DNA of 20,500 nucleotides from a virus (Duplodnaviria > Heunggongvirae > Uroviricota > Caudoviricetes), in the IMG/VR virus record IMGVR_UViG_3300015185_000049; one strand, written 5' to 3'. Positions 1 through 20,409 of the stretch are shown here, in pieces. A program made the translations under genes and the position numbers. The notes under the pieces were generated by a model. That model had not been told where the DNA came from. It saw nothing but the letters and a program-made list of their open reading frames with translations, and searched no databases. Numbering within the stretch: the stretch's first letter is position 1; every line of letters begins with the position of its first letter.

Positions 1-645
<645 letters not shown>

Positions 646-646
<1 letters not shown>

Positions 647-864
647 CAGAACCTCGCCAGCCGGTACCCGGGATGCCCCCGTCGTCGTGTAATCAGAGCC
701 GCAAGGCGGCGCTCCCACTCCTGCCGTCCCTGCCGGATCTCAGATAAGTTTTCCATGGTCATCTGCTGACCATTAAAGGTGACGGATTTTCCGTCCAGCA
801 CCGCCATTTCAGCTTCCGTATAACGCTGAATCATGGCTTCGATATCATTCTGGTTCATAACCAT
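646..864 (-). CDS. Head-tail joining / head completion protein, gpW-like
   Basis: 72-aa ORF directly downstream of the terminase large subunit, with a C-terminal RRRG motif and a size matching lambda W (68 aa). The true start may be the internal Met at 858. Confidence 0.7.
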
Positions 865-2954
865 CCTCCGGAAGTCAGCCAGGGGTTAACATCGTCAGTT
901 ACTGTTTTCTTCCGTTTTTGTTTTTTAACAGGCGTGGATACCGGTTCCGGTGAGGGTGACGGTTCGGTACTGTCCGGGACACACTCCAGCCAGGTTTCCC
1001 GGCTCGCCCATTCCGGTGCATCCGGCCAGCGGATCTTTTCGTATCCATGCAGAATGACCAGAGCCTCGGCATACACCATCAGGTCAAAGGCTTCGTTGGC
1101 ACCGCGACCCGGCTTACTCCATTTCCCGTCACTGCTCCGCTCTTCATACGTCAGTTCGTCGTAAAACCAGCTCCCCAGCCAGTCAGGGAAATGCACATAG
1201 CCGGGACCTGGCGAGTCACGCCATAACGCGTTATTCACCCGGTCTTTCAGTGCATCCGTCTGAAGAAGCCAGAGCGGCACATCACCTGCGGCCTGCGCCC
1301 GTCGGCCCGTTCGTCCGGTGTTATCAGGGAATGTACGGGTGATCAGTTTTGCGCGCCGGATGCTGTCGCCCTTAAACAGGTAAATACGTTTACCAAGGCC
1401 ATCACGACGGCAACGACGCCAGAATTTATAGGCATTATCAGTGACCCCGTCTTCACCGCCGGAGTCCACCGCCATTGCCATCAGTCGCATTTGTTGAGAA
1501 GGATCGGAGGCCAGCGGCCAGCTTTTATGAAAAACATCCGTCAGCAGGACATCCCAGTCTTCCGGATAGCTGGCCGGATCAATTCGCTGGCTCTCCCCGT
1601 CGCAGTCACTGCGCAATGACTGCATGATATTGTAACGATCAATAATCCAGCGTTCGCCACGACTGCCATAGCCCGTTACCTGAACCACAAAACGGCGATG
1701 ACGTCCCGCCTGCACATCCACTGTCGCCACAAGGAAATTAACGCCATCCGGCACACTGCGGGAAGGAACTGGCTCTGCCCGCTGCTCAAGCAGTTCACTT
1801 TTTCGTTGCTCCATGCTGGCACGAGGAAGATAAGGCAATCCCCAGTCGGTGTTGATAACCGCCCTGAGTGTTTCTTCGCTTCCTGTCGCTTCATACTCCT
1901 GTTCTGCAGTCAGTAATTTGTAAACCAGTTGCGCCCAGGTCTGATACGCAGCAGCTGGCCCTTCCATCCAGAAACTGGCGATACGGGAGCGGCGCGGTTC
2001 ACCGGAAACGTTGCCGTTACGATCAATGACCTGACCTTCACGCAACCAGACTCCTGCACTATTGAGCTCACGCTTTTTCTCCGCAGTGATAATGCCGCTG
2101 CAGTGCGGGCAAAGTAGATACGCCGCCTCACTGGCTTTAAAGGGATCCGGTTCATTACGGTAGCCGGTCATGGCATCCATAGCTGGCTGAAAATATTCAC
2201 CGCAGTGCGGACATGGCCAGTACCAGCGGCGGCGGTCACCACGATTGTAAAGGGAAAGAATACCAGTCGTCGGTGGCGCTTCATGAGGCGACTTACGTCG
2301 CCATTTGCTATCGCAGATGTCACGTCCCGGCGAGCTCTCCACCAGAGTCATCCCGGCGGACATAAATGTGGTGGTACGTTTTGAGGCCAGGGAGAAACCA
2401 TCACCCTCGCTGTCGATATTCTCCGGAAAACGGTCGTAATCGGTTAAGGCGACAAACCGGTAATCCGACGACGACATAATGTTGACCGAGGGCCAACCAA
2501 TTTTAAGGAACGAGCCATCCCTGAACGTCTTATCATGGACATTATTGTCGTTACGACGTGGACTCATTCTTTTCTTTACCGCAGCACTGCTTCTGAACGT
2601 TCTGTCGAGGCGCTTTTTAGAATGCTCGCGGGCCTTATCTTCGGTCATCTGCACAACGAGCATGTCCGAAGGATCGCAAACGATGGTATAGACAATCCAT
2701 CCATCGATCAGACCAATGGTCTTCCCTGTTCGCGCAGGACCAACAAAAATCACCGCATCGTATTCACGCGATGCCAGGCAGTTCATGGGCTCAATGATGT
2801 AGGGTGTCAGTTCAGGATCCCATGGCACCGAGTTACCAGCCCCCTTGGGAACACGCATGAATTTTTTAACAGCCTCCGAAATCGGCATGCGACGTGGTGG
2901 GGAAAATCCTGCCGATATGTCCCTTCCCAAATTTCGGGCTGATGAAAAACCCAT
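855..2954 (-). CDS. Terminase large subunit (lambda gpA family)
   Basis: 699-aa uninterrupted ORF directly downstream of the Nu1-like gene, with Cys/His-rich segments (PCPHCGEYF, LCPHCSGI) and an ATPase-like GPARTGKT motif near the N-terminus. Size and synteny fit a lambdoid terminase large subunit. Confidence 0.85.
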   Translation of the reverse strand: MGFSSARNLGRDISAGFSPPRRMPISEAVKKFMRVPKGAGNSVPWDPELTPYIIEPMNCLASREYDAVIFVGPARTGKTIGLIDGWIVYTIVCDPSDMLVVQMTEDKAREHSKKRLDRTFRSSAAVKKRMSPRRNDNNVHDKTFRDGSFLKIGWPSVNIMSSSDYRFVALTDYDRFPENIDSEGDGFSLASKRTTTFMSAGMTLVESSPGRDICDSKWRRKSPHEAPPTTGILSLYNRGDRRRWYWPCPHCGEYFQPAMDAMTGYRNEPDPFKASEAAYLLCPHCSGIITAEKKRELNSAGVWLREGQVIDRNGNVSGEPRRSRIASFWMEGPAAAYQTWAQLVYKLLTAEQEYEATGSEETLRAVINTDWGLPYLPRASMEQRKSELLEQRAEPVPSRSVPDGVNFLVATVDVQAGRHRRFVVQVTGYGSRGERWIIDRYNIMQSLRSDCDGESQRIDPASYPEDWDVLLTDVFHKSWPLASDPSQQMRLMAMAVDSGGEDGVTDNAYKFWRRCRRDGLGKRIYLFKGDSIRRAKLITRTFPDNTGRTGRRAQAAGDVPLWLLQTDALKDRVNNALWRDSPGPGYVHFPDWLGSWFYDELTYEERSSDGKWSKPGRGANEAFDLMVYAEALVILHGYEKIRWPDAPEWASRETWLECVPDSTEPSPSPEPVSTPVKKQKRKKTVTDDVNPWLTSGGWL

Positions 2955-2962
2955 TATTCCTC

Positions 2963-3502
2963 CTAGAGACTCTCTCCTTCCTCATCAGGAATTAATTCAG
3001 CAGCACAAGCCTCGTAGGATTTTTCCTGAAGAGTGTATCGCAGGTCATCAATGGCCTGTTGTACAACGCCGACGGCCTGAGGAGTCAGGGCGCAATCGCG
3101 TTCAAGAACATCCGGAATTGTCTCCAGAACCTGGACGACAGCCTTTCTCATGGACGAATAGACGATGACTACTTCATCAACTGGGATGAGTTTTCGCTGC
3201 TCCTTTTCCAGCTTGATCCTTTCATTTTCAGACTGGTACCAGTCCTTTCTCTCTTTCGGCTCCATACGGGATGGATCATGAACAGAGTCTGCTGCCTCAT
3301 GCTTCACACTAAACAGGGCGGGCCCGACATGCTGCAGGGCGTAAACGGGGTTCCCCCTGACAGTCGCAGCCACAGGAGTGTTGGCCGCGAGGAGCCGTTT
3401 TTTTACTGTGTCCCGGTGAAGCCCAAAGGCCTCGGCGATTTTAAAAACACTCCAGTAATAAGCATCACCGATCCCGCTCACATTTGACATAAGCAACTCC
3501 AT
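2963..3502 (-). CDS. Terminase small subunit (Nu1 / NohA-like DNA packaging protein)
   Basis: 179-aa ORF with an N-terminal HTH-like segment (IAEAFGLHRDTVKKRL) followed by a charged coiled region, ending 9 bp before the large subunit. Architecture and size match the Nu1 / NohA / NohD family. Confidence 0.75.
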   Translation of the reverse strand: MELLMSNVSGIGDAYYWSVFKIAEAFGLHRDTVKKRLLAANTPVAATVRGNPVYALQHVGPALFSVKHEAADSVHDPSRMEPKERKDWYQSENERIKLEKEQRKLIPVDEVVIVYSSMRKAVVQVLETIPDVLERDCALTPQAVGVVQQAIDDLRYTLQEKSYEACAAELIPDEEGESL

Positions 3503-3659
3503 CTGGCAGGTGAAAATCAGGTTTATTTATATATTTCAATTAATTGCAAACTGGTCTAATGACAGGAAGAAAAAAATATTGTACAGGTGAAAAGAGAAAT
3601 AACTTTTAATTATCAATAAATTACCAAACATGCTGCCGCCGCCATGGAAATGCAAAAAC

Positions 3660-3700
3660 TAGCCTTTTTCCGCGACGCTCCCGCCCCGTGGCAGGGACCC
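3660..3700. other. Candidate cos site (cosN-like) upstream of the terminase genes
   Basis: GC-rich island in otherwise AT-rich non-coding DNA about 170-200 bp upstream of the Nu1-like start. Its reverse complement reads GGGGCGGGAGCGTCGCGGAAAAAGG, which resembles lambda cosN (GGGCGGCGACCTCGCGGGTTTTCGC) as I recall it. Confidence 0.3.
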
Positions 3701-4052
3701 CCACTGGGAGGACCCGACAGCCTGACAACCGTGACGAGCATCTGAAACAGAGCTTTACATAATGGCATGGGGATAATTCAGAAGGACATCACAGCATGCC
3801 CACACAAATTAGTGTGAGTGTCCTGTTTCTTACTACGCGCAGGACTGACGAGCATGAGGGGAAAATACGCGAACCGAAATGCCTTATCTTCAGAAATGCA
3901 GCCGGCATCCGAACTGGACGATATTGTAAATTCACCTAAATACGAGGCATTGCTGTAGTTGAATTGCAGTACTGTATTAGCCTTACAGTGACAGAATACG
4001 ATATTGACTCTGTCACTTGTGAAATGGTCAGAATGGTTAGCAGTTATGGTGA

Positions 4053-4259
4053 TCAGTCAACCACCAGGGAATAATCCTTCGTATTCTTATCGTGCTTTAC
4101 TAACGCGGCCTCAATTGCCCTGAATGCTTCCAGAGATACTTGATGTTCTATACATGCAATTACAACATCCGGGTAACCCATCGAAATGGTGCTATTAAGC
4201 ATAGTTTTTACACGAACCTGCTCCTGGGAGGGGGCATCAGTGTATTGATCTTTATGCAT
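4053..4259 (-). CDS. Hypothetical small prophage protein
   Basis: 68-aa ORF in the region between the packaging genes and gnsB; no motif recognised. The start could be an internal Met. Confidence 0.3.
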
Positions 4260-4554
4260 TTTGTCGCTCCATTCGTTTGCTCTTCACTTGCGGCTAAAAA
4301 TATAACGTCAAATCACTCAGCATGAAAGAGTGAAAGTTTCAGCGCGTTTCCCTTACATAATCTGTCGTTTGTATTCTCTTCAGGCATACCGGAAAGACTA
4401 GGTATTGTCACACAACCAATACCATCGACAATCGAGATTTATATCTATTCGGTAATGTTTAAATATAACAAAACCCCGTAAAAACGAGGTTTATGGGTAA
4501 TTTGTATTGTTGAATAGCATCTGATGAGAAATTGATGCTAATACTATAAACATG

Positions 4555-4727
4555 CTAGATTAAATCAATCTTGATATCATAGCTTTCAAGACCAGTCATT
4601 TTTTCCCGTGCAGTAAACTGGATACTGGTAACTTCTTTCCCGGTCTTTTTCTTAAGCTCAATGATTTTTTTGTTATATATTCAGAAATATCTGCTTCTGT
4701 TTTTGTTTTTAACTCTTCAATGTTCAT
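4555..4727 (-). pseudogene. gnsB: gnsB-like gene interrupted by a frameshift in a homopolymer tract
   Basis: N-terminus MNIEELKTKTEADISEYITKK matches the GnsA/GnsB family. After the A7 run (T-run on the plus strand near 4665-4671) the frame gives SLSLRKRPGKK and a stop at 4596, while the adjacent frame continues IELKKKTGKEVTSIQFTAREKMTGLESYDIKIDLI to a stop at 4555-4557, which is the conserved Gns C-terminus. Confidence 0.6.
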
Positions 4728-4899
4728 CATTTCCTCTTTTAGTCTGTTATGACTGTCCTGGTACACAGTAGTGTCAATTATATGGAGCAAACGTATAAAA
4801 GATAAGATGAAACATCGCAATAATCAACATACGACGGTCTAAATTTCACACAAACAGATAAAGATGATTATCATTTATTATCAATGCATTAGAATCAAA

Positions 4900-5055
4900 T
4901 CAATTCAAGAGTCTCATTGCTGCTTCCAGAATTTCTTCTGAAGTTACATGTCGATCCGCTGCTACATAAATGACTTTATGATCTCCGGTCAGAGATGGAA
5001 ACCCTGCAGCCATTACAGTGAGGTGTGTTGTTTCGCCATTTGGATATTCACGCAT
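4900..5055 (-). CDS. YnfN-like small prophage protein
   Basis: Small ORF between gnsB and cspI, the position of ynfN in K-12 Qin. Probable start is the internal Met of MREYPNGETTHLTVMAAGFPSLTGDHKVIYVAADRHV. Confidence 0.45.
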   Translation of the reverse strand: MREYPNGETTHLTVMAAGFPSLTGDHKVIYVAADRHVTSEEILEAAMRLLN

Positions 5056-5400
5056 GATGGTGTTAACTCCGGTCATCACTGGCACTACCATTGCTGGTTC
5101 AGAGTTAAAAAAACTATTATTTTTTTCATAATGTTACCGTAATATGTGAGTATCCATCGACTAGACACTAAGCAAAAAAGCTCCCGAAGGAGCCTTCATT
5201 TTCACTTTCTTAAATCTAACGACAGATGGCTAACATTTAAGTATTGTGAAATATTATCAAATGTAATCATCATTGATTTACAAAAGATACATTTTGCCCC
5301 GAAAGGATTTCTGTCAGAAACATCAAAAGATGATGTTCTATACTGAGAACCATGGCAACACGGGCATCTAAAGTGAATATGGTTTGTAATATTTTCTACC

Positions 5401-5613
5401 TCAAAGTGCCACTACATGAACAGCTGCAGGGCCTTTAGGTCCGTTCTCAATACCAAATTCGACTTCCTGATTCTCAGTTAACGTTTTGAAATCGTTGCTC
5501 TGAATAGCTGAGAAATGCACAAACACATCTTTGCTACCATCTTTCGGCGTGATGAAACCAAAACCTTTTTCAGGGTTAAACCATTTCACTAAACCAGTCA
5601 TTTTGTTAGACAT
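5401..5613 (-). CDS. cspI: Cold shock protein, CspA family (CspI-like)
   Basis: Complete cold-shock domain with RNP1-like motif KGFGFI and RNP2-like VFVHF ([38 protein letters not shown]...), about 70 aa, preceded by a long AT-rich leader as is typical of csp genes. Confidence 0.9.
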
Positions 5614-5976
5614 CATTATTACCTTTTGAAGAAGTTAGCCCTTGGGCAGAATGGTCCGAAAAAAAATATCAGAGAGAAAAACCAACAAGGAAATCTCAAG
5701 AGGTACAAATAATAAAATTATAACAATGACTGCTTCAGATAATTTTGTAACAAACCAGAACACCATTAACGCATGATTAACCAACCATAGCAAGGATTAC
5801 TTTTGTAAAGAAAAACACACGAATGAAACAATAGCTTTATTTATTAATAAAACGTGTCATTCTGTCTAATGACCTTTTATCTTACCCTTAAGATTTCAAG
5901 GATTTTGACTCATGGAAGAGTCCTTTTTATTTAAATTTCACATTCAGCGCTAAAAATAATCCGATTTAATATTAAT

Positions 5977-7000
<1,024 letters not shown>

Positions 7001-7004
<4 letters not shown>

Positions 7005-7312
7005 AGATATTTATGATGAGGACGCTCGTGCTTATTGGCAGGATTTTCAATCTTAAAGGAGTACTGATGCTGCAGATAAGACTCAACTTTTTCTGACAAT
7101 TTTTCTGCTACTTCCAGGAAGACTTGCCGGACGCTCATTCTGGCTGCTGCCTCATAAAACTCCAGCGCAGCTCCTTCAACACGGTCCATGGCGACATCCA
7201 GGCCAAAAATTTCACCGTCAAAGCGTTCTTTGTCCTGTAAGGCTACAGTTACCGTAACTTTATTCTCAAAATTACGGACTCCTTTCACAACCAGTTCATA
7301 GTCTTGAGTCAT
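7001..7312 (-). CDS. YdfR-like protein of unknown function, between holin and endolysin
   Basis: 103-aa ORF with tight overlaps on both sides (4 bp with the endolysin). Same size and position as ydfR in K-12 Qin (recalled). Confidence 0.55.
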
Positions 7313-7316
7313 TGGA

Positions 7317-7532
7317 TTACTCTCCTCTCGCAGCCTTACGCCTGTCTTCTTTAATCTTGAAATAAAGATTTGTCAGATACGTCAGCATGCCAAATACCAG
7401 ACTACCCAATACACCTATTGCCGCCCACTGTGAGGGCGTGACTTTATCGAGCAACTGTAAAAACCAGTAGCCAGCACTGCCTGCAGAGGTGCTGTAGGCG
7501 ATGCCCGTTGTTAACTTATCCATGGATTTCAT
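7317..7532 (-). CDS. Holin, class II (phage 21 S-like pinholin) with dual-start motif
   Basis: Sequence [71 protein letters not shown] has two transmembrane segments, a charged C-terminus and the Met1/Met4 dual-start arrangement of S21-type holins. The ORF track extends it upstream to 7616, but that extension is unlikely to be translated. Confidence 0.85.
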
Positions 7533-7722
7533 AGCCTCACCTCCGCAGATAACGGATGGTGTACACGGTTTGGTTCGAAGAAGGAAAGAAGTTACATTAG
7601 CGTAAGGCCCGAACATCTATTCAAAAAGAAAAACGCCAGCAATTATTCTGGCGTAGCTAAAAATATCGTATAATCTTACACTTCAAAAAATAACTTTATA
7701 AAATGCCATCACATCATATCTT

Positions 7723-8445
7723 CTAAGAAAATCTTGATAAATATTGGTGCGGAGGCACACCAAAATATCCTCTAAAAACACTTACAAAATATGATGCATT
7801 GTCATACCCGCATATTCCCGCCACCTTGCCGACAGTATGGTTACTGTAGATCAATAATCTTTGCGCCATCATCATTCGTTCTTCAAGAATTAATTTACTA
7901 AACGATAATCCTTCGTCTTTTAATTTTCTTTTTAACAAACTCTCGCTCATATATAATCTTGAAGATATATCACAAAGTCTCCATGACGCAGAGATATCCG
8001 AGTGAATAATAGCCTTAACTTTACAACCTAAGCTATTAAGACTTCCGAACAAAAAACTTTGCACTATTTTCTCTGAAGATAAGACAGCAAGACATGCAAG
8101 TGATATTTGATTTCTAACTACATCCACGGTTTTGCTATCACAATTCAAGCATGCAACCAAGTTCTTTAACAATGAAAAATCTTCACATTCTACTATCAAG
8201 TATGACGGATAAAACCTTCTTACAGAAAAAGGTGAGAGTGTGTAGTTTTTAAAGAAATCATTAACTGTTTTCTCCTCAACATCTACGATCATTAGATGAT
8301 CTGTATTTGACGAAAAAAGATCTTTTAAATTGTATTCAATGAGGACAGCATTTCCTTTTTTAAACAAAATATCTTCTTTACCAATTCGGACACCAAACGA
8401 GTTCAACACCAAAATGATAGAACATATGTATGGCATATTATCCAC
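7723..8445 (-). CDS. AraC-family transcriptional regulator (cargo gene)
   Basis: 240 aa with a C-terminal AraC-type double HTH (GKVAGICGYDNASYFVSVFRGYFGVPPHQY). The gene is visibly AT-rich and is flanked by long AT-rich non-coding DNA inside the late operon. Confidence 0.8.
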   Translation of the reverse strand: MDNMPYICSIILVLNSFGVRIGKEDILFKKGNAVLIEYNLKDLFSSNTDHLMIVDVEEKTVNDFFKNYTLSPFSVRRFYPSYLIVECEDFSLLKNLVACLNCDSKTVDVVRNQISLACLAVLSSEKIVQSFLFGSLNSLGCKVKAIIHSDISASWRLCDISSRLYMSESLLKRKLKDEGLSFSKLILEERMMMAQRLLIYSNHTVGKVAGICGYDNASYFVSVFRGYFGVPPHQYLSRFS

Positions 8446-8842
8446 CTGATATCATTGGGGTTACACCAGGTAAGTATAGGTGGAAAATCAATATTCGCCA
8501 GTTCAACAATAAGGAAAATCTCATTGCATCACAACTATAAAACCATGTGTTTAACTCACAAAAAACAAATCATTAAACTAATCTGTTATATTATAATAGC
8601 TGCGTGCAATAATAATATTATATGCTCTTAATATTCACTTGAAATATCTTCATATAAAAACAGATTGAATAAAATCTTTTGGGGCTGGTATGTTTACCAA
8701 CATTAAATTGCATCTCAATGTTTTCTTTAGCGTGAACAGGATTTTTATAAAAACTGACACTATGAGCATCATAGCGTAGTTTTTACGATTGTAAATATCC
8801 TGCATACAGGAACTCATCACTTTCAGATGATATCGCATACAG

Positions 8843-9802
8843 TTAATTCACCATCAGTCTTAGAGCCAGTTCTTCCGGATAGGGATCGAAGTAATTCTGT
8901 GTAAGCAAGTAATCATTAGGATACTCACCCAGATAATGCTTCAGCAGAGTCAACGGCGCAAGAAGAGGCAATGTGCCAAAGCGATAGTTAAGTATAACCT
9001 CGCTCAACTCTTTACGCTGGCGTGTGCTTAAGTAATTACTAAAATACCCCTGTATATGCATCAGCACATTCGTGTGATTTTTACGTGATGCTGGTTTTCT
9101 GAGAATCGCCATCAGATTATCACGATACACCTCAAAGTATGATTCAAGGTCCGCCCACTCGTGTATTGCAGCCACAAATGGTCCCATATCTTTATAGCCT
9201 GCCTGGCTATGCGCCAACAACTGAAGCTTATAACGACTATGAAAAGCTAATAACTCTCTTCTTGATAATTTCTCCTTGTAAAGGTGATTGAGCTCATCCA
9301 AAGCAAAAACTCTTTCAATAAAATTCTCACGAAGCACTGGATCATGTAATCGCCCATCCTCTTCAACCGGTAGCCAGGAAAACTTTTCCATCAAAGTGCT
9401 CGTAAATAGTCCCACTCCATCTTTACGACCTCGATTACCATTTTCATCATAGACACGCACGCGCTCCATGCCACAGCTGGGAGATTTAGCACAAACCACA
9501 AACCCCGATACATCCTTTAATTTGTCCATATAAGAACGACTAAACTCTGTCATTCTCTCTGTCACATCCTCATTCTGGTCGTGGCTGAAACACATCCGTA
9601 TATTTCCTTGCTTCGAGCGCACAAGTCGTAGAGCAGGACGCGGAACTGGCAGCCCTATAGCCATTTCCGGACATACTGGTCTGAATGTTACCCATTCCAC
9701 TAATTTGTCCATTAAAAAGTCATCTCTTTTGTGACCACCATCAAAACGAACAGCAGAACCGCCCAAACAACCGCTGATCCCAATCACAGGTTTTTTTATC
9801 AT
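8843..9802 (-). CDS. YbgA-like protein (DUF523 / TudS-type predicted Fe-S domain fused to DUF1722)
   Basis: 319 aa. The N-terminus GISGCLGG...RPVCPEM...VVCAKSPSCGME carries the conserved cysteine pattern of the DUF523/TudS family, and the C-terminal half is DUF1722-like. Overall architecture matches E. coli YbgA (recalled). Confidence 0.7.
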   Translation of the reverse strand: MIKKPVIGISGCLGGSAVRFDGGHKRDDFLMDKLVEWVTFRPVCPEMAIGLPVPRPALRLVRSKQGNIRMCFSHDQNEDVTERMTEFSRSYMDKLKDVSGFVVCAKSPSCGMERVRVYDENGNRGRKDGVGLFTSTLMEKFSWLPVEEDGRLHDPVLRENFIERVFALDELNHLYKEKLSRRELLAFHSRYKLQLLAHSQAGYKDMGPFVAAIHEWADLESYFEVYRDNLMAILRKPASRKNHTNVLMHIQGYFSNYLSTRQRKELSEVILNYRFGTLPLLAPLTLLKHYLGEYPNDYLLTQNYFDPYPEELALRLMVN

Positions 9803-9994
9803 TTCCTCCCCCTTGACTAATTCATTAACACATAAACTGTGTAGTGCACGGAATAAATTGCCTTTCTGACGTCATCACTGACAATTTTTCTGTTATGGAC
9901 TATTCCTAATATAGTATGAAAGTTCTTTAAGTGATCGGTCGTAATCATCTATCTTTCATACTTACTCTCAACTATCAAAAGTACAGGATTGATT

Positions 9995-10519
9995 ATGAAG
10001 TTATGGCCTGTGTTGACTGGCATTGCACTCTCTTTCACTCTTATAGCATGTAAGGCCCCGACACCACCTAAAGGTGTGCAGCCGATTACAAATTTTGACG
10101 CCAACCGCTACCTCGGAAAATGGTATGAAATAGCTCGCCTCGAGAACCGGTTCGAACGTGGTCTGGAACAGGTCAGCGCTACTTATGGAAAACGGAACGA
10201 CGGAGGGATTCGTGTACTTAACCGTGGATACGATCCAACGAAAAATAAATGGAGCGAGAGCGAAGGTAAAGCATACTTTACTGGAGATACTAAAACTGCA
10301 GCGTTGAAGGTTTCGTTTTTTGGCCCCTTCTATGGTGGCTATAATGTAATCAAACTGGATGATGAGTATAAGTATGCTCTTGTTAGTGGTTCGAACAGAG
10401 AATACCTATGGATTCTGGCAAGGACCCCAACTATTCCAGATAAAGTAAAAGCAGACTATGTGCGAACCGCTCAAAAGTTGGGATTCAATGTCAATGAATT
10501 ATTATGGGTTAAACAATAA
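9995..10519 (+). CDS. blc: Bacterial lipocalin (Blc-like outer-membrane lipoprotein)
   Basis: Lipoprotein signal with lipobox LIAC, then the lipocalin signature FDANRYLGKWYEIARLENRFERG and downstream SFFGPFYGGYNV...YLWILARTP, closely resembling E. coli Blc. The ORF track starts at a TTG at 9989; ATG at 9995 is the likelier start. Confidence 0.85.
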   Translation: MKLWPVLTGIALSFTLIACKAPTPPKGVQPITNFDANRYLGKWYEIARLENRFERGLEQVSATYGKRNDGGIRVLNRGYDPTKNKWSESEGKAYFTGDTKTAALKVSFFGPFYGGYNVIKLDDEYKYALVSGSNREYLWILARTPTIPDKVKADYVRTAQKLGFNVNELLWVKQ

Positions 10520-10546
10520 AATCCCTACCCGAAATGATACTTATTA

Positions 10547-10575
10547 GAAAAAAACCAGCCTTTGGGGAGGCTGGC
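10547..10575 (-). terminator. Rho-independent terminator, candidate tR' downstream of Q
   Basis: Inverted repeat CCAGCCT / AGGCTGG (about 10555-10574) with a 6-nt loop, followed on the minus strand by a run of 7-8 T (the plus-strand A-run at about 10547-10554). Confidence 0.55.
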
Positions 10576-10624
10576 TAAATCAGGAAACAAGCTGTTATAT
10601 GATAATAACTACGTTGCGATTCCA

Positions 10625-10665
10625 ACATTTAAAATGTTAGACTAATGACAATCAGACAGCAACTT
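10625..10665 (-). promoter_or_regulatory. Candidate late promoter PR' with qut region
   Basis: On the minus strand, TTGCTG (-35, plus 10657-10662), a 17-nt spacer and TAACAT (-10, plus 10634-10639), lying between the Q stop and the terminator at 10547-10575. This is the layout expected for a Q-dependent late promoter with a short leader transcript. Confidence 0.35.
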
Positions 10666-10674
10666 TTCCTTTAA

Positions 10675-11052
10675 TTATTTCGAACAATCAGCATCCATCT
10701 CCAATCGGAGATCCAATACCATCAGCATGCCCTCCACTACGCCCTCAGCTTTCTGGAGCATCCTGCCAACCCAACAATCAGATCGCCCATGCTTACGTGC
10801 AAGCGCCATAAAAGTCATGCCGCCGACATAATAGTCCACCAATAAACCATGTAAATCGCTGTTGTTTTTTCTCAGGCGAGCCATACATTCACAAATGATC
10901 ATCGCGTCATCGTCACAGCATTGCGGACGAGATCTTACTTTTGAAGGAATTAATCCCTTAAAACCAGCGGCAATGGACGACCAGGTCACATCTTCATGAT
11001 TATTAGCCGCCCATGCCCCCCAACGCTCAAGAACCATCTGAATATCACGCAT
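10675..11052 (-). CDS. Antitermination protein Q (phage 82 / QuuD-type)
   Basis: [76 protein letters not shown]... closely matches my recollection of the QuuD/QuuQ family, including the Cys-rich segment. The gene is immediately upstream of the promoter/terminator module. Confidence 0.85.
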
Positions 11053-11069
11053 CAACTTACTCCACATAA

Positions 11070-12158
11070 TTAGGCCAGCACACCAATTGCCAGCGCGCGA
11101 TCGATAAATCGAAAAATCAGCTCCAGTTGGGAGCCATACTTCTCTTCAAATGCCACGGTATCCGTATGCAACTCGTCGTGATGCTTTCTGCACAAAGGCA
11201 ACACAAAGAGATCATGTGCTTTGGTTCCCATTCCGCCCTGCCCGTGACCAATCAGATGATGCGGATCGTCGGCTGGCATCCCGCAGCAAGCACACGGCTG
11301 TGTCTTAACCCAGCGTGTGTATTTCTCCTTAACCCAACGGTGACGTTTAGGCAGCTTCATGAAAGATTCCGGAGACTCTGGATCAACGGTGATGCTTACC
11401 ACCGTCTTTTCCTGTGGTGGTTTTTGTTGCTGGTGGGCGTAAGGCAACGGTGCAAGATTTTTTGTGCGTTGTTTCAATATGCTGGTGGCGGCCTGCTCTC
11501 CCGGTACGATGTCGCTCTCGCGGTACACCGAGCAGATTTTTTCCGCTGGTAATCCCAGCGAACGACGTAATACCGCTTCCGGTAGCGCGTCCGCCACCTG
11601 ATTGCGGAGCGCCCACCAGGATAATTCAGCCAGAGATAATTCACGCTCCTGCGTACCGCTTATTGCGTGACCGATGACGTCAATCATCCATGCTGACAGG
11701 TTTTGATGAGCAAGTTGCTCGAGTGATTCGGATGTCTGGTCACGCAGTTGGTTGTCGCAGTGCCAGCACAACACCATTGCGCCGGTACCATAACGGTGAA
11801 TGACGGTTTCGCTGTGATGATAATCGCCGTGCGGCCACTGGCAGGATTTAATATGGCGCAACAGCCAGTCAGACAATGCACCAGCACCACCAGCAGCACG
11901 AATCACCCGTGCGTTACTGAAAAACGGCAGCAATGTTTTGTCTTCCACCAGCGGCTGGCGAACGGCAGGAACGACCCCGGACGGCAGATTACGCATGCTT
12001 TTCGGTTCCGGCTCCACCAGTACCCGGGTATTGTGGAATACCGGCATGGATTCACGGCCTAGTTTAAGGACCACCAGCCCAAGCTCTGGCACCAGAACAG
12101 GTCTAAGTAATACCCGCACGTTACCTCCAGATCCGTTGCTGGAAAGTGCGGGACGCAC
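11070..12158 (-). CDS. DUF968 (YdfU-like) protein with C-terminal HNH-like Cys/His motif
   Basis: 362-aa ORF directly upstream of Q, the position of ydfU in Qin. The C-terminus has CACCG...[32 protein letters not shown], reminiscent of a His-Me finger / HNH zinc motif. The start is uncertain; an internal Met near 12047 would remove the overlap with the upstream ORF. Confidence 0.7.
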
Positions 12159-12505: not shown

Positions 12506-13651
12506 TTATTTTTGTTTTATGGTAAATGAAATAACATTGTCAGAATGAATCATATCTGATTCTTTAAATCGTGTAATTGCAGATAACTCATTTAAGGGAA
12601 GAGCAAAGATATCAGTTAACTCAGTTACCTTTATGATTGAATGCTTATCAAGAAGTAAAAGTAACTTATTAAGTAACTCAGGCTCTTCTTTTGGGATTGC
12701 ATCATCTAACGGCTCCCTACGATGGAATGGCGCTAATTGCTTAAATATATAGCTTTTCTGATTATCGCTGATTAACTTAAGGCTATGACTCCTCATGGCA
12801 ATACTACCGATAGATGTAATCCAACGTAGTTTTAATCGTTCTAACGCTGATAAATTTGGACTATAAAATTCACGCCCGAAAGTGGTGGCTGGCATTAAAA
12901 AGCTGGAGGCAAAATAATCGGCCTGCAACTCCACCAGGTCGAATAATTCTTTATCATTCAGGTAGTCATCCTCCACTGCCCTATGCATAATTAAATGGCC
13001 AAGTTCATGAGCAAGACTAAATCGCATGCGAACAGCCGTCTTCGAGCTATCTAACATAATTAAAGGCCGCCCATTATGCCAGAACGAAAAGGCATCAACT
13101 TTCTCACCAGAAGGTAAATGAGAAACCACGATTCCTTTATTTTCAACAAGTCTAGTTAAATTGAGTATTGGACCATCACCTAACCCCCAAAAACGCCTTA
13201 ATTGGGTGGACATATCCTCAATATCAGATAGAGACAGAACCTCAAAATCAATAATATCGAATTCAGGCAGAACCACATCTGGTAATTGAGCATATTTTAG
13301 ACATTCATCCAATATTAATGCCGCCCAACGCCCACGTGTTTTCCCTGTAACTCGAGCCTTTTTGGTCGCAGTTGAACGACTTCTAAAATGAATCGCCCCC
13401 TCCAGAGATGGAGAAGCACTGGAGGCTAAGAAAAATCGTTCTGGAAATCCTAACACCTTGGCTATTGCAGAAAGTGTATCAGCAGAGGGAGACTTCAACC
13501 CCTTCTCAAATGACGAAATAGCTTGTCTTGAAATATTGAGCACTCTGGCAAGTTCAGCCATCGTCAACCCTTTTGCCTCTCTTGCCTCCTCAAGGCGACG
13601 AGGATTAAACGATTTATCAGTAAATGGTGTTTGTGCGATATTCATGCTCAT
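12506..13651 (-). CDS. Fusion protein: N-terminal XRE-type HTH plus ImmA/IrrE-family zinc metallopeptidase (HEXXH), with a roughly 130-aa C-terminal extension
   Basis: 381 aa. The N-terminus LTMAELARVLNISRQAISSFEKG is a classic XRE HTH; the central SLAHELGHLIMH is an HExxH zinc-peptidase motif in an ImmA/IrrE (COG2856)-like context. Start overlaps the upstream gene's stop by 4 bp (ATGA). AT-rich. Confidence 0.8.
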   Translation of the reverse strand: MSMNIAQTPFTDKSFNPRRLEEAREAKGLTMAELARVLNISRQAISSFEKGLKSPSADTLSAIAKVLGFPERFFLASSASPSLEGAIHFRSRSTATKKARVTGKTRGRWAALILDECLKYAQLPDVVLPEFDIIDFEVLSLSDIEDMSTQLRRFWGLGDGPILNLTRLVENKGIVVSHLPSGEKVDAFSFWHNGRPLIMLDSSKTAVRMRFSLAHELGHLIMHRAVEDDYLNDKELFDLVELQADYFASSFLMPATTFGREFYSPNLSALERLKLRWITSIGSIAMRSHSLKLISDNQKSYIFKQLAPFHRREPLDDAIPKEEPELLNKLLLLLDKHSIIKVTELTDIFALPLNELSAITRFKESDMIHSDNVISFTIKQK

Positions 13652-14262
13652 GATTGCTGTGATTTAATTATTTGTTCGGTAAGAATCTTGATTTTATCTT
13701 CAATCTCAGAATCCACATTTTCTGCTTCAACTTCTACCATCGTCATAATTGGTAAAGACTCAGTATAAAGAATCCCGTAATTATCCGAAGAAGGAACAGT
13801 TAAATTCAGTTTGGACAAGTGCTGATTACTGCCATCATGTAACATATAAACATGTCCACCAGACGCTCTCCCATCCAGGGAGTCGGCATTTTCATCCCCA
13901 AAATTCAATTCATAATTTTGATTAGCGTAAACAGCTCTATACAATGCCTGCTTAGGAAGTGGCGCATTACCCGATAAATGATGTGCCGTCATTTTCCAGT
14001 TGTTCGAGTGAATCGCAATGTGTTTACAATTTTTAGCAGCATTGCTACCGACTTCAAAATCCAGCCCCACACGCTTAGCCGCATTCTCAAGCAATGCATC
14101 GGCATAAAACCAGCGCAAATATGACTGTGCTTGAGCCCAAAAAGAACCAAACTCTTTTGCCTTCATATGCGAATGAAGATAAGCCTGTGCTAACGCGATC
14201 GAAAGCTCTTTGCGGCACTCCTTGTCATATGCTTCTAACAACTGTTGAGATAAATTCTGCAT
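13648..14262 (-). CDS. Protein of unknown function, first gene of the cassette (candidate toxin or effector partner)
   Basis: 204-aa ORF with an SD-like AAGGA upstream and translational coupling to the HTH-peptidase gene. No motif recognised; acidic C-terminal tail. Confidence 0.65.
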   Translation of the reverse strand: MQNLSQQLLEAYDKECRKELSIALAQAYLHSHMKAKEFGSFWAQAQSYLRWFYADALLENAAKRVGLDFEVGSNAAKNCKHIAIHSNNWKMTAHHLSGNAPLPKQALYRAVYANQNYELNFGDENADSLDGRASGGHVYMLHDGSNQHLSKLNLTVPSSDNYGILYTESLPIMTMVEVEAENVDSEIEDKIKILTEQIIKSQQS

Positions 14263-14428: not shown

Positions 14429-14584
14429 TTACTCCTCAGGTTCGTAAGCTGTGAAGACAGCGACCTCCGTCTGGCCGGTTCGGATTCGTACCTCGCAGAG
14501 GTCTTTCCTCGTTACCAGTGCCGTCACTATGACGGTTAAACAGATGACGATCAGGGCGATTAACATCGCCTTTTGCTGCTTCAT
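14429..14584 (-). CDS. hokD: Hok-family type I toxin (HokD/RelF-like)
   Basis: MKQQKAMLIALIVICLTVIVTALVTRKDLCEVRIRTGQTEVAVFTAYEPEE, 51 aa, has the Hok transmembrane and periplasmic pattern and matches HokD as I recall it. Confidence 0.9.
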   Translation of the reverse strand: MKQQKAMLIALIVICLTVIVTALVTRKDLCEVRIRTGQTEVAVFTAYEPEE

Positions 14585-14641
14585 AGCCTGCTTCTCCTTG
14601 CCTTCCGGCACGTAAGAGGCTAACCTACATGTGTCTAGCAT
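14429..14641 (-). CDS. mok: mok (modulator of killing) reading frame overlapping hok
   Basis: In-frame 19-codon upstream extension of hok (MLDTCRLASYVPEGKEKQA...), as in hok/sok loci where mok translation is coupled to hok. Confidence 0.55.
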   Translation of the reverse strand: MLDTCRLASYVPEGKEKQAMKQQKAMLIALIVICLTVIVTALVTRKDLCEVRIRTGQTEVAVFTAYEPEE

Positions 14642-14700
14642 GAAATTGGCCTCAGATTAATGTTAAGCGTCTTGCAGGACGCGTAATGTTAACTGGGGCT
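14598..14700 (+). ncRNA. sok: Candidate Sok-like antisense RNA with promoter
   Basis: Plus-strand TTGCCT (14598-14603), 17-nt spacer, TAACCT (14621-14626), antisense to the mok start region. Boundaries are not determined and no experimental support is available. Confidence 0.3.
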
Positions 14701-14795
14701 TTTCTCTATCTGCCGTTGGTGTTCATGCCTGAGGCAGATAGCCTCAAGCACCCGCAGCAATTCTACTTAACTCACGTCACCTCGCCAATATAAAA

Positions 14796-20351: not shown

Positions 20352-20409
20352 TTTCTGGTGACGTTTAGCGGTATCAGTTTTACTCCGTGACTGCTCTGCC
20401 GCCGTTTTT
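20352..20409 (+). ncRNA. dicF: DicF small RNA (cell-division inhibitor sRNA) with 3' terminator hairpin
   Basis: TTTCTGGTGACGTTTAGCGGTATCAGTTTTACTCCGTGACTGCTCTGCCGCCGTTTTT is near-identical to my recollection of K-12 DicF, ending in a GC-rich stem and U-run. Located downstream of the ydfA-like operon as in Qin. Confidence 0.75.

What the first reader, a model, noticed from the sequence alone, without database searches (positions are those of the whole stretch)
8843..9802. Prophage-borne YbgA/TudS-like protein (DUF523 plus DUF1722): a possible thionucleotide-modifying enzyme carried as phage cargo
Seen in sequence: N-terminal cysteines in the pattern GISGCLGG / RPVCPEM / VVCAKSPSCG, consistent with the DUF523 cluster-binding residues, fused to a DUF1722-like C-terminal half. 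Established knowledge: DUF523 proteins (TudS) have been described as Fe-S desulfidases acting on thiouracil compounds, and E. coli YbgA has this fused architecture next to the photolyase gene. Inference: a phage-encoded copy could act on thiolated nucleotides, for example tRNA s4U or sulfur-modified nucleic acids, during infection or stress. I do not know of an established phage role for this family.
Basis: partly seen in the sequence, partly recalled or inferred. Interest (0 to 1): 0.6.

Follow-up and report, generated by a model that had tools for sequence, protein, structure and literature searches.

The report
Prophage-borne RudS tRNA thiouridine eraser
This gene in a defective E. coli prophage encodes RudS, an iron-sulfur enzyme that removes the UV-sensitive sulfur from 4-thiouridine in tRNA; a 92%-identical copy from a cultured coliphage has already been tested in the laboratory, so the reading is right but the enzyme is not new.

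Summary
The ORF at 8843-9802 (minus strand, 319 aa) is real. It has a TudS/DUF523 domain fused to DUF1722, each about 137 bits in Pfam. The three cluster cysteines (C12, C44, C110) and catalytic E46, R55, S107, S109 align with TudS. This architecture is the published RudS family (Jamontas et al. 2024, PMC11417400), which desulfurises tRNA 4-thiouridine. [quoted passage not shown] The window protein is 92% identical to it, without gaps.

The gene lies in a Qin-type defective prophage, in the cargo slot between antiterminator Q and the holin. Its neighbours are a divergent lipocalin (Blc) and an AraC-like regulator.

Three points go beyond the literature:
- The gene is in about 20% (1064/5426) of complete E. 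coli genomes, although papers say E. coli lacks RudS.
- blc and rudS were probably captured together from an Enterobacteriaceae chromosome, without the MerR-type regulator that precedes rudS there.
- A Proteus prophage acquired a different rudS lineage independently.

The role for the phage or lysogen is still untested. Verdict: already known, modest interest.

The parts
8843..9802 (-). rudS coding sequence (319 aa), a TudS-DUF1722 fusion annotated by PGAP as 'YbgA family protein'
   Evidence: ORF. Pfam PF04463 plus PF08349. 92% identical to the tested RudS_vir. RefSeq annotation WP_072721588.1.
9356..9784 (-). TudS / 2-thiouracil desulfurase domain (residues 7-149), with cluster ligands C12, C44, C110 and catalytic E46, R55, S107, S109
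   Evidence: Pfam. Alignment to TudS 6Z92. Residues invariant in 83 homologues, except S109, which is T in 5. The AF2 model matches only TudS structures in the PDB.
8876..9229 (-). DUF1722 domain (residues 192-309), which the literature proposes binds the tRNA anticodon arm
   Evidence: Pfam. 48% identical to K-12 YbgA. The tRNA-binding role comes from PMC11417400.
9805..9812 (-). Shine-Dalgarno sequence GGGGGAGG ahead of the rudS ATG
   Evidence: Read from the sequence. Partly conserved in phages 1H12 and IdasGreatGrand.
9944..9971 (-). Candidate sigma-70 promoter for rudS (TTGAGA-16-GATGAT, 9/12) in the 186-bp divergent blc/rudS intergenic region
   Evidence: Consensus scan only; the promoter count does not exceed the shuffles. 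The distal intergenic region is highly conserved among carriers.
9995..10519 (+). blc-like outer-membrane lipocalin gene, divergent from rudS; the co-captured partner
   Evidence: Pfam Lipocalin_2 and NCBIfam Blc at 312 bits, above cutoff. 74-81% identical Blc lies divergent from rudS in Enterobacter, Kluyvera and related chromosomes. Found in 1045 E. coli genomes.
10675..11067 (-). Antiterminator Q gene. The late promoter pR' is expected just downstream, so rudS lies on the late transcript.
   Evidence: Pfam Phage_antitermQ, 169 bits. The module boundary versus K-12 Qin falls at 11069/11070.
10553..10576 (-). Intrinsic terminator hairpin plus T-run about 100 nt downstream of Q. It is a candidate tR' and also lies behind the convergent blc.
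   Evidence: Terminator scan. Hairpin identical and T-run conserved in the window, 1H12 and IdasGreatGrand.
7723..8445 (-). AraC-family (YdeO/GadX-like) regulator gene downstream of rudS; an optional third member of the cassette
   Evidence: Pfam HTH_18 / HTH_AraC and NCBIfam YdeO-like, below cutoff. Replaced by IS1 in strain GSH8M-2.
7633..7654 (-). Terminator-like hairpin between the cassette and the holin gene
   Evidence: Terminator scan.
7317..7616 (-). Holin (essD/S-type), the first lysis gene and downstream border of the cargo slot
   Evidence: Pfam Phage_holin_2_1. PGAP names it essD.

Best explanation
The gene encodes RudS, a [4Fe-4S] desulfidase that converts 4-thiouridine at position 8/9 of tRNA back to uridine.

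Enzyme mechanism (taken from the literature on the family). The N-terminal TudS domain holds the cluster through C12, C44 and C110. The free fourth iron binds the thiocarbonyl sulfur. E46, oriented by R55, S107 and S109, activates water. The C-terminal DUF1722 domain docks the tRNA.

Genomic setting (shown here). The gene is cargo in the Q-to-holin slot of a lambdoid (Qin-type, defective) prophage. It forms a conserved pair with a divergent blc lipocalin gene.

Origin (inferred). The blc-rudS pair was most likely captured from an Enterobacteriaceae chromosome where blc, a MerR/MlrA-type regulator, a transthyretin-like gene and rudS lie together. The phage copy has lost the regulator. It is therefore probably uncoupled from its native, presumably light-responsive, control. 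Instead it would be read from its own weak promoter in the lysogen and from the Q-dependent late transcript after induction.

Physiology (inferred). It lowers the host's tRNA s4U content. That blunts the near-UV (UVA) tRNA crosslinking, growth delay and stringent response, in E. coli strains whose chromosome keeps only a truncated, inactive DUF1722 relic (YbgA).

My confidence by step is about 0.9 for the enzyme identity, about 0.6 for the capture history and about 0.35 for the physiological role. The overall figure given is weighted towards the enzyme identity and setting.
For: Identity:
- Both Pfam domains match over their full profiles at about 137 bits each.
- The Cys ligands and catalytic Ser residues align to solved TudS.
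- C12, C44, E46, R55, S107 and C110 are invariant in 83 homologues, and S109 is S in 78 and T in 5.
- The AF2 model (pLDDT 75) matches only TudS 6Z92-6ZW9 in the PDB, with probability 1.0 and target-normalised TM 0.58.
- The protein is 92% identical, without gaps, to RudS_vir of phage 1H12. An E. coli prophage (strain KE47) carries an allele 100% identical to RudS_vir.
- PMC11417400 reports that all tested RudS proteins, including RudS_vir, lowered tRNA s4U in E. coli. Cys, Glu, Ser and Arg mutants lost activity, and RudS_KT shortened the UVA growth delay from about 105 to about 60 min.

Selection: dN/dS is 0.11-0.14 at dS about 0.30 between phage-borne alleles, similar to Q and blc.

Setting:
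- The order Q, blc, rudS, AraC-like gene, holin is seen in the window, 1H12, IdasGreatGrand and KE47.
- The module 7562-11069 replaces K-12 Qin's Q-cspF-cspB segment.
- GC content is 30-45% in the cassette against about 50% in the flanks.
- A conserved terminator lies just after Q.

Origin:
- Blc at 74-81% identity lies divergent from rudS in 13 Enterobacter, Leclercia, Kluyvera, Raoultella and related genomes.
- A MerR/MlrA-like regulator lies directly upstream of rudS in 13 chromosomal loci and in no phage or prophage locus.

Host background: K-12 YbgA is DUF1722 only. It is closest to the phr-linked lineage, at 61-62% against 48% for the window protein.

Recurrence: a Proteus lambdoid prophage carries rudS of the other paralogue clade downstream of its Q. 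A Salmonella copy sits in a prophage remnant next to ttcA.
Against: - No activity, Fe-S cluster or expression data exist for this allele. It differs from RudS_vir at 27 positions.
- In the paper RudS_vir was less active on tRNA than RudS_ST or RudS_KT despite good expression, and it gave the quickest (though still delayed) growth on 4-thiouracil. Its substrate preference may therefore be shifted.
- The UVA phenotype was shown only for overexpressed Pseudomonas RudS_KT, not for the phage enzyme or at native expression.
- The promoter-like sites are no more frequent than in shuffled sequence: 12 found against 12.2 expected. No LexA box lies at rudS. Expression in lysogens is therefore unproven.
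- The AT-rich flanks could be silenced.
- The window's prophage is defective: its portal gene is truncated next to an adjacent IS3-family element. Late transcription may therefore never occur here.
- The NJ tree has no support values. The phage clade sits on a long branch with no close donor, at most 75% identity, so the capture scenario rests on synteny alone.
- Mapping of the residues to RudS_KT numbering was done by offset, not by aligning the KT sequence.
Confidence: 0.72

Rival explanations
1. The phage enzyme works mainly like stand-alone TudS. It would salvage free thiolated pyrimidines (4-thiouracil, 4-thio-UMP released by tRNA turnover) into the uracil pool, supplying nucleotides during phage replication rather than editing intact tRNA.
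For: The catalytic domain is a bona fide TudS domain. Among the RudS proteins tested, RudS_vir gave the shortest lag for growth of a uracil auxotroph on 4-thiouracil, and it was less active on tRNA than expected from its protein level.
Against: No RudS, including RudS_vir, supported growth the way TudS did, and none used 2-thiouracil. RudS_vir did lower tRNA s4U, whereas stand-alone TudS did not. The DUF1722 half is under the same purifying selection and is fully retained. That would be unnecessary for a free-base enzyme. The amount of pyrimidine recoverable from s4U is very small.
Confidence: 0.08
2. The gene is a neutral passenger. It was picked up by illegitimate recombination into the promiscuous Q-to-holin slot and persists by hitch-hiking in common prophages, with no benefit to phage or host.
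For: The slot holds unrelated cargo in relatives: cspB/cspF in K-12 Qin and porins in other phages. The cassette is hit by IS elements in some strains: IS3 in ATCC 8739 and others, IS1 splitting the gene in YSP8-1, and IS1 replacing the AraC-like gene in GSH8M-2. BL21-type strains keep only a 147-nt fragment. The window's prophage is itself defective.
Against: dN/dS of 0.11-0.14 over dS about 0.30 shows sustained purifying selection within phage-borne alleles. All catalytic residues are intact. About 24 of 30 evenly sampled E. coli hits are full-length, uninterrupted genes. The blc-rudS pair is kept even where the neighbouring gene is lost. A different rudS lineage was acquired independently in the same late-region position by a Proteus prophage.
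Confidence: 0.15
3. The enzyme targets another thiolated nucleic acid or serves in phage-host conflict. For example, it might erase s4U to evade or disarm a host tRNA-directed defence, to reprogramme tRNA stability, or to act on sulfur-modified DNA.
For: Only circumstantial. Loss of s4U changes the stability of some tRNAs: tRNA-Tyr and tRNA-Ser levels dropped about 2-fold on RudS_KT overexpression. The prophage also carries a defence-type RmrA/RmrT pair, so the element is engaged in phage-phage conflict.
Against: There is no PADLOC hit for RudS, Blc or the AraC-like protein. The paper found no effect on 2-thiocytidine. The chemistry is specific for a C4 thiocarbonyl on uracil, not for phosphorothioate. 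No defence system known to me reads s4U8 (my own knowledge, unverified).
Confidence: 0.04

Closest known systems
RudS_vir (Escherichia phage 1H12 gp66, H3V29_gp66), assayed in Jamontas et al. 2024, NAR 52:10543 (PMC11417400)
   Same: Same length (319 aa), 92% identical without gaps, and all ligand and catalytic residues identical. Same cassette: Q, blc, rudS, AraC-like gene, holin. An allele 100% identical to RudS_vir occurs in an E. coli prophage, strain KE47.
   Different: There are 27 substitutions, 91.4% nucleotide identity and dS 0.30. The window copy sits in a defective Qin-type prophage with ydfU upstream of Q, rather than in a viable lambda-like phage with a nin region. This allele is closer to phage IdasGreatGrand, at 97%.
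Chromosomal RudS of Enterobacteriaceae, non-phr lineage: Salmonella ORF319/STM1389 (RudS_ST), Enterobacter, Citrobacter
   Same: 319 aa, 68-75% identical, same domains and residues. In Enterobacter and Kluyvera a Blc homologue lies divergent from rudS, as in the phage.
   Different: The chromosomal copies follow a MerR/MlrA-type regulator, with or without a transthyretin-like gene, or end a CFA-synthase/DUF3833 operon. The phage copy has neither and lies on the phage late transcript instead.
TudS (stand-alone DUF523 thiouracil / 4-thio-UMP desulfidase; PDB 6Z92-6ZW9)
   Same: Same catalytic fold, three-Cys [4Fe-4S] site and Glu/Ser/Ser residues.
   Different: TudS is a single domain of about 150-166 aa that acts on free bases and nucleotides and does not lower tRNA s4U. 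The window protein carries the extra DUF1722 tRNA-binding half and shares only about 27% identity.
E. coli K-12 YbgA (b0707)
   Same: It shares the DUF1722 domain, 48% identity over 152 residues. PGAP names the window protein 'YbgA family protein'.
   Different: YbgA is 169 aa, has no TudS domain, lies upstream of phr and had no effect on s4U. It descends from the phr-linked paralogue lineage, at 61-62% identity. The window protein scores 188.5 bits against the 237-bit cutoff of the YbgA equivalog model.
Lambdoid 'moron' cargo between Q/pR' and the lysis genes (stx in Stx phages; cspB/cspF in Qin)
   Same: Same slot, atypical GC content, flanked by terminators, and co-oriented with late transcription.
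   Different: The cargo here is a tRNA de-modification enzyme plus a lipocalin and a regulator, not a toxin, porin or cold-shock protein. That stx-type cargo depends on Q read-through is established knowledge, not tested here.

Membership tests
RudS (TudS-DUF1722 tRNA s4U desulfidase) | N-terminal TudS/DUF523 domain followed by C-terminal DUF1722 in one polypeptide. The paper's criterion is both domains at E<0.001, more than 80 aa aligned, in this order. | tested here: met
   PF04463 over residues 7-149 (E 5.8e-40) and PF08349 over residues 192-309 (E 9.4e-40). Criterion quoted.
RudS (TudS-DUF1722 tRNA s4U desulfidase) | Three conserved cysteines that ligate the [4Fe-4S] cluster (TudS C10/C43/C104; RudS_vir C12/C44/C110) | tested here: met
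   C12, C44 and C110 align to the TudS ligands. They are identical in RudS_vir and invariant in 83 homologues. Table 1 of PMC11417400.
RudS (TudS-DUF1722 tRNA s4U desulfidase) | Catalytic Glu, two Ser and Arg (RudS_KT E51, S111, S113, R60) | tested here: met
   E46, S107, S109 and R55 are present. Each keeps the same spacing from the catalytic Glu as in KT: R is at +9 in both, and the S-x-S-C motif is conserved. They are conserved in 83 homologues. The KT sequence itself was not aligned, so the numbering match is inferred.
RudS (TudS-DUF1722 tRNA s4U desulfidase) | TudS-like fold of the catalytic half | tested here: met
   The AF2 model has pLDDT 75. Foldseek against the PDB finds only TudS entries, with probability 1.00 and target-normalised TM 0.57-0.59. 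The cluster loops are low-confidence, as expected without the cofactor.
RudS (TudS-DUF1722 tRNA s4U desulfidase) | Desulfidation of s4U in tRNA; presence of an Fe-S cluster | not testable with these tools
   Shown experimentally for the 92%-identical RudS_vir and five other RudS proteins (PMC11417400), but not for this allele.
Stand-alone TudS | Single-domain protein of about 150 aa that supports growth on 2- and 4-thiouracil | tested here: not met
   The window protein is a 319-aa two-domain fusion. The literature reports that RudS_vir gives only delayed growth on 4-thiouracil and none on 2-thiouracil.
E. coli YbgA (NCBIfam NF007549 equivalog) | Score above the curated cutoff; DUF1722-only protein encoded upstream of phr | tested here: not met
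   188.5 bits against a cutoff of 237. K-12 YbgA is 169 aa and lies next to phr. The window gene is in a prophage and has a TudS domain.
Lambdoid phage moron (lysogenic-conversion cargo) | Located between conserved phage modules, with deviant base composition and different cargo in related phages | tested here: met
   Lies between Q and the holin. The module 7562-11069 replaces K-12 Qin's Q/cspF/cspB segment. GC is 30-45% against about 50% in the flanks.
Lambdoid phage moron (lysogenic-conversion cargo) | Own promoter and terminator allowing expression from the repressed prophage | tested here: inconclusive
   Promoter-like sites exist upstream of rudS (9971..9944), but their number equals the shuffled expectation. 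Terminator-like sites number 6 against 2.5 expected. There are no expression data.

The most novel reading that the evidence does not exclude
Prophage-borne RudS is a true lysogenic-conversion factor. It would rewrite the host tRNA epitranscriptome in about one fifth of E. coli strains. By erasing the s4U8 near-UV sensor, it would weaken the UVA growth delay and stringent response in lysogens. It would also keep translation running when sunlight or UV induces the prophage. The gene has been uncoupled from its native MerR-type control and placed under Q-dependent late transcription. Lambdoid prophages of E. coli and Proteus acquired different rudS lineages independently at the same position, which would point to selection for this arrangement.
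Probability: 0.3. Interest if true: 0.55.

Novelty: already known. Interest (0 to 1): 0.3.

Why it matters
The enzyme family and its phage representative are already published, so the finding adds no new biochemistry. Three things still make it useful.

1. It corrects a statement repeated in the primary paper and in a 2026 review, that E. coli lacks RudS. About 20% of complete E. coli genomes carry an apparently intact prophage copy. UVA and s4U physiology measured in K-12 or BL21 may therefore not hold for many natural isolates.

2. It identifies a natural experiment. The same enzyme has lost its MerR-type regulator and sits on a phage late transcript. That makes the question of what a tRNA-modification eraser does for a virus or its lysogen directly testable, using existing phages (1H12, IdasGreatGrand) and their lysogens.

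3. It explains K-12 YbgA as a truncated relic of a second, photolyase-linked RudS lineage.

Tried and rejected
1. SOS control of rudS. A LexA-box search (CTGT-N8-ACAG, up to 1 mismatch) gave 8 hits against 6.3 expected. The only one near rudS lies inside the coding region. Rejected.

2. The unassigned 175-aa protein of the Citrobacter rudS operon as a Blc relative. BLASTP found no similarity and Pfam gave only a weak chalcone-isomerase-like hit. Rejected for that lineage. The Blc link was later found in a different lineage, Enterobacter and Kluyvera.

3. Anti-phage defence role. There were no PADLOC hits for RudS, Blc or the AraC-like protein.

4. Known RNA elements or tRNA genes in the cassette. 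Rfam at gathering thresholds and ARAGORN found none between Q and the holin.

5. A solved structure for DUF1722. Neither sequence search nor Foldseek against the PDB matched the C-terminal half.

6. A literature search for an established phage role of RudS or DUF1722 found none beyond the enzyme assay of RudS_vir.

7. Mapping of the DUF1722 tRNA-contact residues of RudS_KT (N202, N203, S243, R244, T246) was not done, because the KT sequence could not be fetched.

8. Whether the AraC-like neighbour is a PsrA/PsrB/PatE orthologue was not resolved. No EHEC sequences were retrieved. The only evidence is YdeO/GadX-like NCBIfam hits below cutoff.

9. Plasmid carriage. Four records matched, but all are non-mobilizable, two are chromosome-sized (4.8-4.9 Mb) and two are unusually large (0.28 and 0.73 Mb), so there is no good evidence of plasmid carriage.
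Full report
OBSERVATION. The ORF listing finds a 319-aa ATG-to-stop ORF at exactly 8843..9802 on the minus strand. A strong Shine-Dalgarno sequence, GGGGGAGG, ends 2 nt upstream of the ATG. Pfam assigns residues 7-149 to PF04463 (2-thiouracil desulfurase, formerly DUF523; E 5.8e-40, 137 bits). It assigns residues 192-309 to PF08349 (DUF1722; E 9.4e-40, 136 bits). Both matches span the full profile. A phmmer search of PDB sequences returns only TudS (6Z92 and its sister entries). That alignment places C12, C44 and C110 on the published TudS ligands C10, C43 and C104, and S107/S109 on S101/S103.

WHERE IT IS. The window is E. coli DNA. The 3.9-kb stretch around the gene is 100% identical to strain CH4796. 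Annotation of that record shows a Qin-type prophage carrying pinQ, a portal gene truncated next to an adjacent IS3-family element (ISEc31), terminase, cspI, rzpQ, rrrQ, ydfR, essD, ydfU, hokD and ydfA. Rfam adds sok, DicF and a cspA-type thermoregulator. The prophage is therefore defective. The gene order on the minus strand is Q antiterminator (10675..11067), then blc lipocalin on the opposite strand (9995..10519), then the gene of interest, then an AraC-family regulator (7723..8445), then holin, DUF1327, endolysin and Rz. Compared with K-12 Qin, homology runs through 4946-7561 and resumes at 11070. The module 7562-11069 therefore replaces K-12's ydfT(Q)-ynfS-cspF-cspB-ynfU segment. The cassette has low GC content, 30-45% against about 50% in the flanks. 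This is the classical cargo ("moron") slot of lambdoid phages.

WHAT IT IS. The TudS-DUF1722 fusion has a published name and function. Jamontas et al. 2024 (PMC11417400) called it RudS. They showed that six orthologues lower tRNA 4-thiouridine 4.7- to 26-fold when expressed in E. coli. Purified RudS_KT desulfurises tRNA s4U in vitro. Mutating the cluster cysteines abolishes activity in most variants, and mutating E51, S111, S113 or R60 of RudS_KT essentially abolishes it. Modelling and mutagenesis indicate that DUF1722 contacts the anticodon region. RudS_KT overexpression shortens the UVA-induced growth delay from about 105 to about 60 min. Stand-alone TudS and E. coli YbgA had no effect on tRNA s4U. 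One of the six tested enzymes was "RudS_vir", gp66 of Escherichia phage 1H12. That phage is among my hits and carries the same cassette of Q, Blc, gp66, an AraC-like gp67 and holin. The window protein is 292/319 (92%) identical to RudS_vir, without gaps, and every ligand and catalytic residue is identical. It is 97% identical to the homologue in phage IdasGreatGrand. An E. coli prophage (strain KE47) carries an allele 100% identical to RudS_vir at the nucleotide level. By spacing from the catalytic Glu, the RudS_KT catalytic residues correspond to E46, R55, S107 and S109 here. These residues and the three cysteines are invariant in an 83-sequence alignment, except S109, which is T in five sequences. 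An AlphaFold2 model (pLDDT 75, pTM 0.77) matches only the TudS structures in the PDB, with probability 1.0 and target-normalised TM about 0.58. The helical DUF1722 half has no solved relative. I therefore file the protein as a RudS with high confidence. Activity and cofactor cannot be tested with these tools.

E. coli K-12 YbgA is not a fusion. It is a 169-aa DUF1722-only protein immediately upstream of phr. It is 48% identical to the C-terminal half of the window protein, and the window protein fails the curated cutoff of the YbgA equivalog model, at 188.5 against 237 bits. Free thiouracils are poor substrates for RudS enzymes. RudS_vir gave the shortest but still delayed growth on 4-thiouracil and none on 2-thiouracil. 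The phage enzyme has already been cloned and assayed, so the biochemical novelty is gone.

DISTRIBUTION. The gene alone, at 80% coverage or more and 90% nucleotide identity or more, is in 1064 of 5426 complete E. coli genomes. Identity is at least 99% in 406 records, 95-99% in 620 and 90-95% in 110. Of 30 evenly spaced hits, about 24 are full-length single-piece genes annotated 'YbgA family protein'. Some copies are interrupted by IS1, and BL21-type strains retain only a 147-nt fragment. The whole cassette is in 951 genomes and the phage-type blc is in 1045. The 90%-identity protein cluster has 2556 member sequences. By contrast, only 12 of 50,697 phage records encode a full-length RudS. All 12 are E. 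coli lambdoid phages, and 11 belong to the 1H12/Lambda_ev group. Both the RudS paper and a 2026 review state that E. coli lacks RudS. That holds for K-12 and B strains but not for roughly one strain in five.

SELECTION. Between the window allele and 1H12, dS is 0.30 and dN is 0.042, giving dN/dS 0.14. Between IdasGreatGrand and 1H12, dN/dS is 0.11. Q (0.06-0.11) and blc (0.07-0.08) behave similarly. Both alleles lie in the same cassette, so this divergence accumulated in the phage-borne state under purifying selection. This argues against a decaying passenger.

ORIGIN. The nearest non-E. coli proteins are 319-aa chromosomal RudS of Citrobacter, Serratia, Klebsiella, Salmonella and Enterobacter at 68-75% identity. 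Classifying 80 representative genomes by neighbours gives three contexts.
- In 48 loci, at 56-63% identity, rudS lies directly upstream of photolyase phr. K-12 YbgA is 61-62% identical to the DUF1722 half of this lineage, and no TudS remnant lies upstream of it. YbgA is therefore a truncated relic of the phr-linked paralogue.
- In Citrobacter, Klebsiella michiganensis, Serratia and Kosakonia, rudS ends an operon encoding SDR, amine oxidase, DUF1365, CFA synthase, DUF2878 and DUF3833.
- In Enterobacter, Leclercia, Raoultella, Lelliottia, Huaxiibacter, Buttiauxella izardii and Kluyvera, a Blc homologue 74-81% identical to the phage Blc lies upstream on the opposite strand.

In Enterobacter the interval between blc and rudS holds a MerR/MlrA-type regulator (241 aa) and a transthyretin-like gene. 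In Kluyvera, blc and rudS are directly divergent with a 112-bp gap, as in the phage (186 bp). The MerR/MlrA-like regulator precedes rudS in 13 chromosomal loci, including Salmonella enterica diarizonae. That fits the paper's note that Salmonella ORF319 is under a MerR-family regulator. The regulator is absent from the window and from every phage or prophage locus examined. An unsupported NJ tree places the E. coli phage alleles on a long branch, sister to the whole non-phr clade. My inference is that blc and rudS entered a lambdoid phage together from an Enterobacteriaceae chromosome and the regulator was left behind. In strain GSH8M-2, IS1 has replaced the AraC-like gene while blc and rudS remain intact. 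The conserved core is therefore the blc-rudS pair.

RECURRENCE. Proteus myxofaciens carries a lambdoid prophage segment with a DUF968 protein, Q (43% identical to the window's Q), a phage lysozyme, rudS (57% identical) and an ADP-ribosyltransferase toxin. Its RudS falls in the other, phr-linked clade, so this looks like an independent capture into the same late-region position. A Salmonella Derby copy (73% identical) lies between ttcA, integrase fragments and a DUF1367 phage gene, which is a prophage remnant.

HOW IT IS PROBABLY EXPRESSED. A strong intrinsic terminator (10576..10553) lies about 100 nt after the Q stop codon. Its hairpin is identical and its T-run conserved in the window, 1H12 and IdasGreatGrand, within a 97%-conserved interval. 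This fits a pR'-tR' unit, which also closes the convergent blc. rudS and the AraC-like gene point the same way as Q and the lysis genes, so Q-modified polymerase must traverse them to reach the holin. A second terminator-like hairpin lies just before the holin (7654..7633). By analogy with stx genes in the same slot (established knowledge, not tested here), induction should boost rudS expression. Promoter-like hexamers precede rudS (9971..9944) and the AraC-like gene (8795..8768), but their number does not exceed the shuffled expectation. No LexA box is present. Expression in the repressed lysogen is plausible but unproven.

MECHANISM AND ROLE. The chemistry is taken from the literature on the family. 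The three-Cys [4Fe-4S] cluster binds the C4 sulfur of s4U8/9 through its free iron. E46, positioned by R55, S107 and S109, activates water. Sulfide leaves and uridine remains. DUF1722 holds the anticodon arm. The inferred consequence is a lower s4U content in lysogens, and therefore less s4U8-C13 photocrosslinking, a shorter UVA growth delay and a smaller ppGpp burst. The possible cost is destabilisation of tRNA-Tyr and tRNA-Ser. Crosslinked tRNA is not repaired, so any protection must be pre-emptive. That favours expression in the lysogen as the relevant mode. Late-transcript expression may additionally help translation during UV- or sunlight-triggered induction. These physiological steps are untested. 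The UVA phenotype in the paper used overexpressed Pseudomonas RudS_KT, and RudS_vir was the less active enzyme on tRNA.

RIVALS.
- TudS-like salvage of free thiopyrimidines has some support from RudS_vir's relatively quick growth on 4-thiouracil. It is contradicted by its tRNA activity, the retained DUF1722 domain and the very small amount of pyrimidine involved.
- A neutral passenger is supported by IS hits and the promiscuity of the slot. It is contradicted by dN/dS, intactness, retention of the blc-rudS pair and independent capture.
- An anti-defence or other nucleic-acid target has no PADLOC support and no known s4U-reading defence system.

VERDICT. The object is a member of an already characterised family whose phage representative has been assayed, so novelty is 'already known'. 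The residual interest is about 0.3 and rests on three points. The first is the unrecognised prevalence in E. coli. The second is the loss of the MerR-type regulator and relocation to the phage late region. The third is the open and now readily testable question of what a tRNA-modification eraser does for a temperate phage or its host.

Noticed in passing
window 12506..13651 (-) and 13648..14262 (-): The 381-aa HTH plus M78-peptidase protein matches PADLOC RmrA strongly (339 bits, E 5.5e-102). The overlapping upstream 204-aa protein matches RmrT weakly (36.8 bits). This is a RosmerTA-type anti-phage defence pair inside the prophage, lying between ydfU and hokD, where K-12 Qin has only rem.
   Followed up: partly
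window 7723..8445 (-): AT-rich (about 32% GC) AraC-family regulator just downstream of rudS. Its best NCBIfam matches are YdeO, HilD and GadX, far below cutoff. It recalls the prophage-encoded acid-resistance and T3SS regulators PatE, PsrA and PsrB of EHEC (PMC10877973), but no direct comparison was made. Its C-terminus differs from the 1H12 and IdasGreatGrand alleles (237 vs 243 aa), and IS1 replaces it in strain GSH8M-2.
   Followed up: partly
window 9995..10519 (+): A second, phage-borne Blc outer-membrane lipocalin (NCBIfam 312 bits, above cutoff). It occurs in 1045 E. coli genomes and always travels with rudS. It is 74-81% identical to the chromosomal Blc that sits next to rudS in Enterobacter and Kluyvera. 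Its function in the cassette is unknown.
   Followed up: partly
L080 (Proteus myxofaciens ATCC 19692) 373..6059: A separate lambdoid prophage late region: DUF968, Q, a 475-aa phage lysozyme/amidase, rudS (57% identical, from the other paralogue clade), then a pertussis-S1/enterotoxin-A-like ADP-ribosyltransferase. Here rudS sits beside a toxin moron.
   Followed up: partly
L002 (K-12 MG1655) 4002..4511 and loci L041-L092: K-12 ybgA is a DUF1722-only relic of a rudS-phr operon that is intact in 48 other Enterobacterales genomes. An H-repeat/Rhs-associated gene (ybfD) lies directly upstream, and no TudS remnant was detected.
   Followed up: yes
L007-L009 (Salmonella enterica serovar Derby and metagenomes): A 73%-identical rudS lies next to ttcA, flanked by two phage-integrase fragments and a DUF1367 phage gene. 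This is another prophage-remnant copy, distinct from SPI-2 ORF319.
   Followed up: partly
L040 (contig labelled 'Candidatus Nanosynbacter sp.' MAG): A 3.2-kb contig carrying RudS (92% identical), the AraC-like gene (85%) and the holin (94%) of the E. coli cassette. It is almost certainly an E. coli prophage fragment mis-binned into a Saccharibacteria MAG.
   Followed up: no
H59, E. coli Nico21(DE3), a BL21 derivative: This B-strain derivative retains only the first 147 nt of rudS, annotated '2-thiouracil desulfurase family protein'. It descends from the BL21(DE3) background used as the RudS-free host in the published assays.
   Followed up: no
window 14579..14753 (-), 5355..5771 (-), 20353..20404 (+), 1..73 (-): Rfam gathering-level hits typical of Qin: sok antitoxin RNA next to hokD, a cspA-type thermoregulator leader ahead of cspI, DicF sRNA, and a truncated isrC match at the window edge.
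   Followed up: no
window 10520..10700 (-): The non-coding interval after Q is more conserved among cassette carriers (97%) than the flanking genes (91-95%). It ends in a perfect hairpin plus T-run. This is probably the pR'/Q-utilisation/tR' unit of this Q type, but the promoter itself was not pinpointed.
   Followed up: partly
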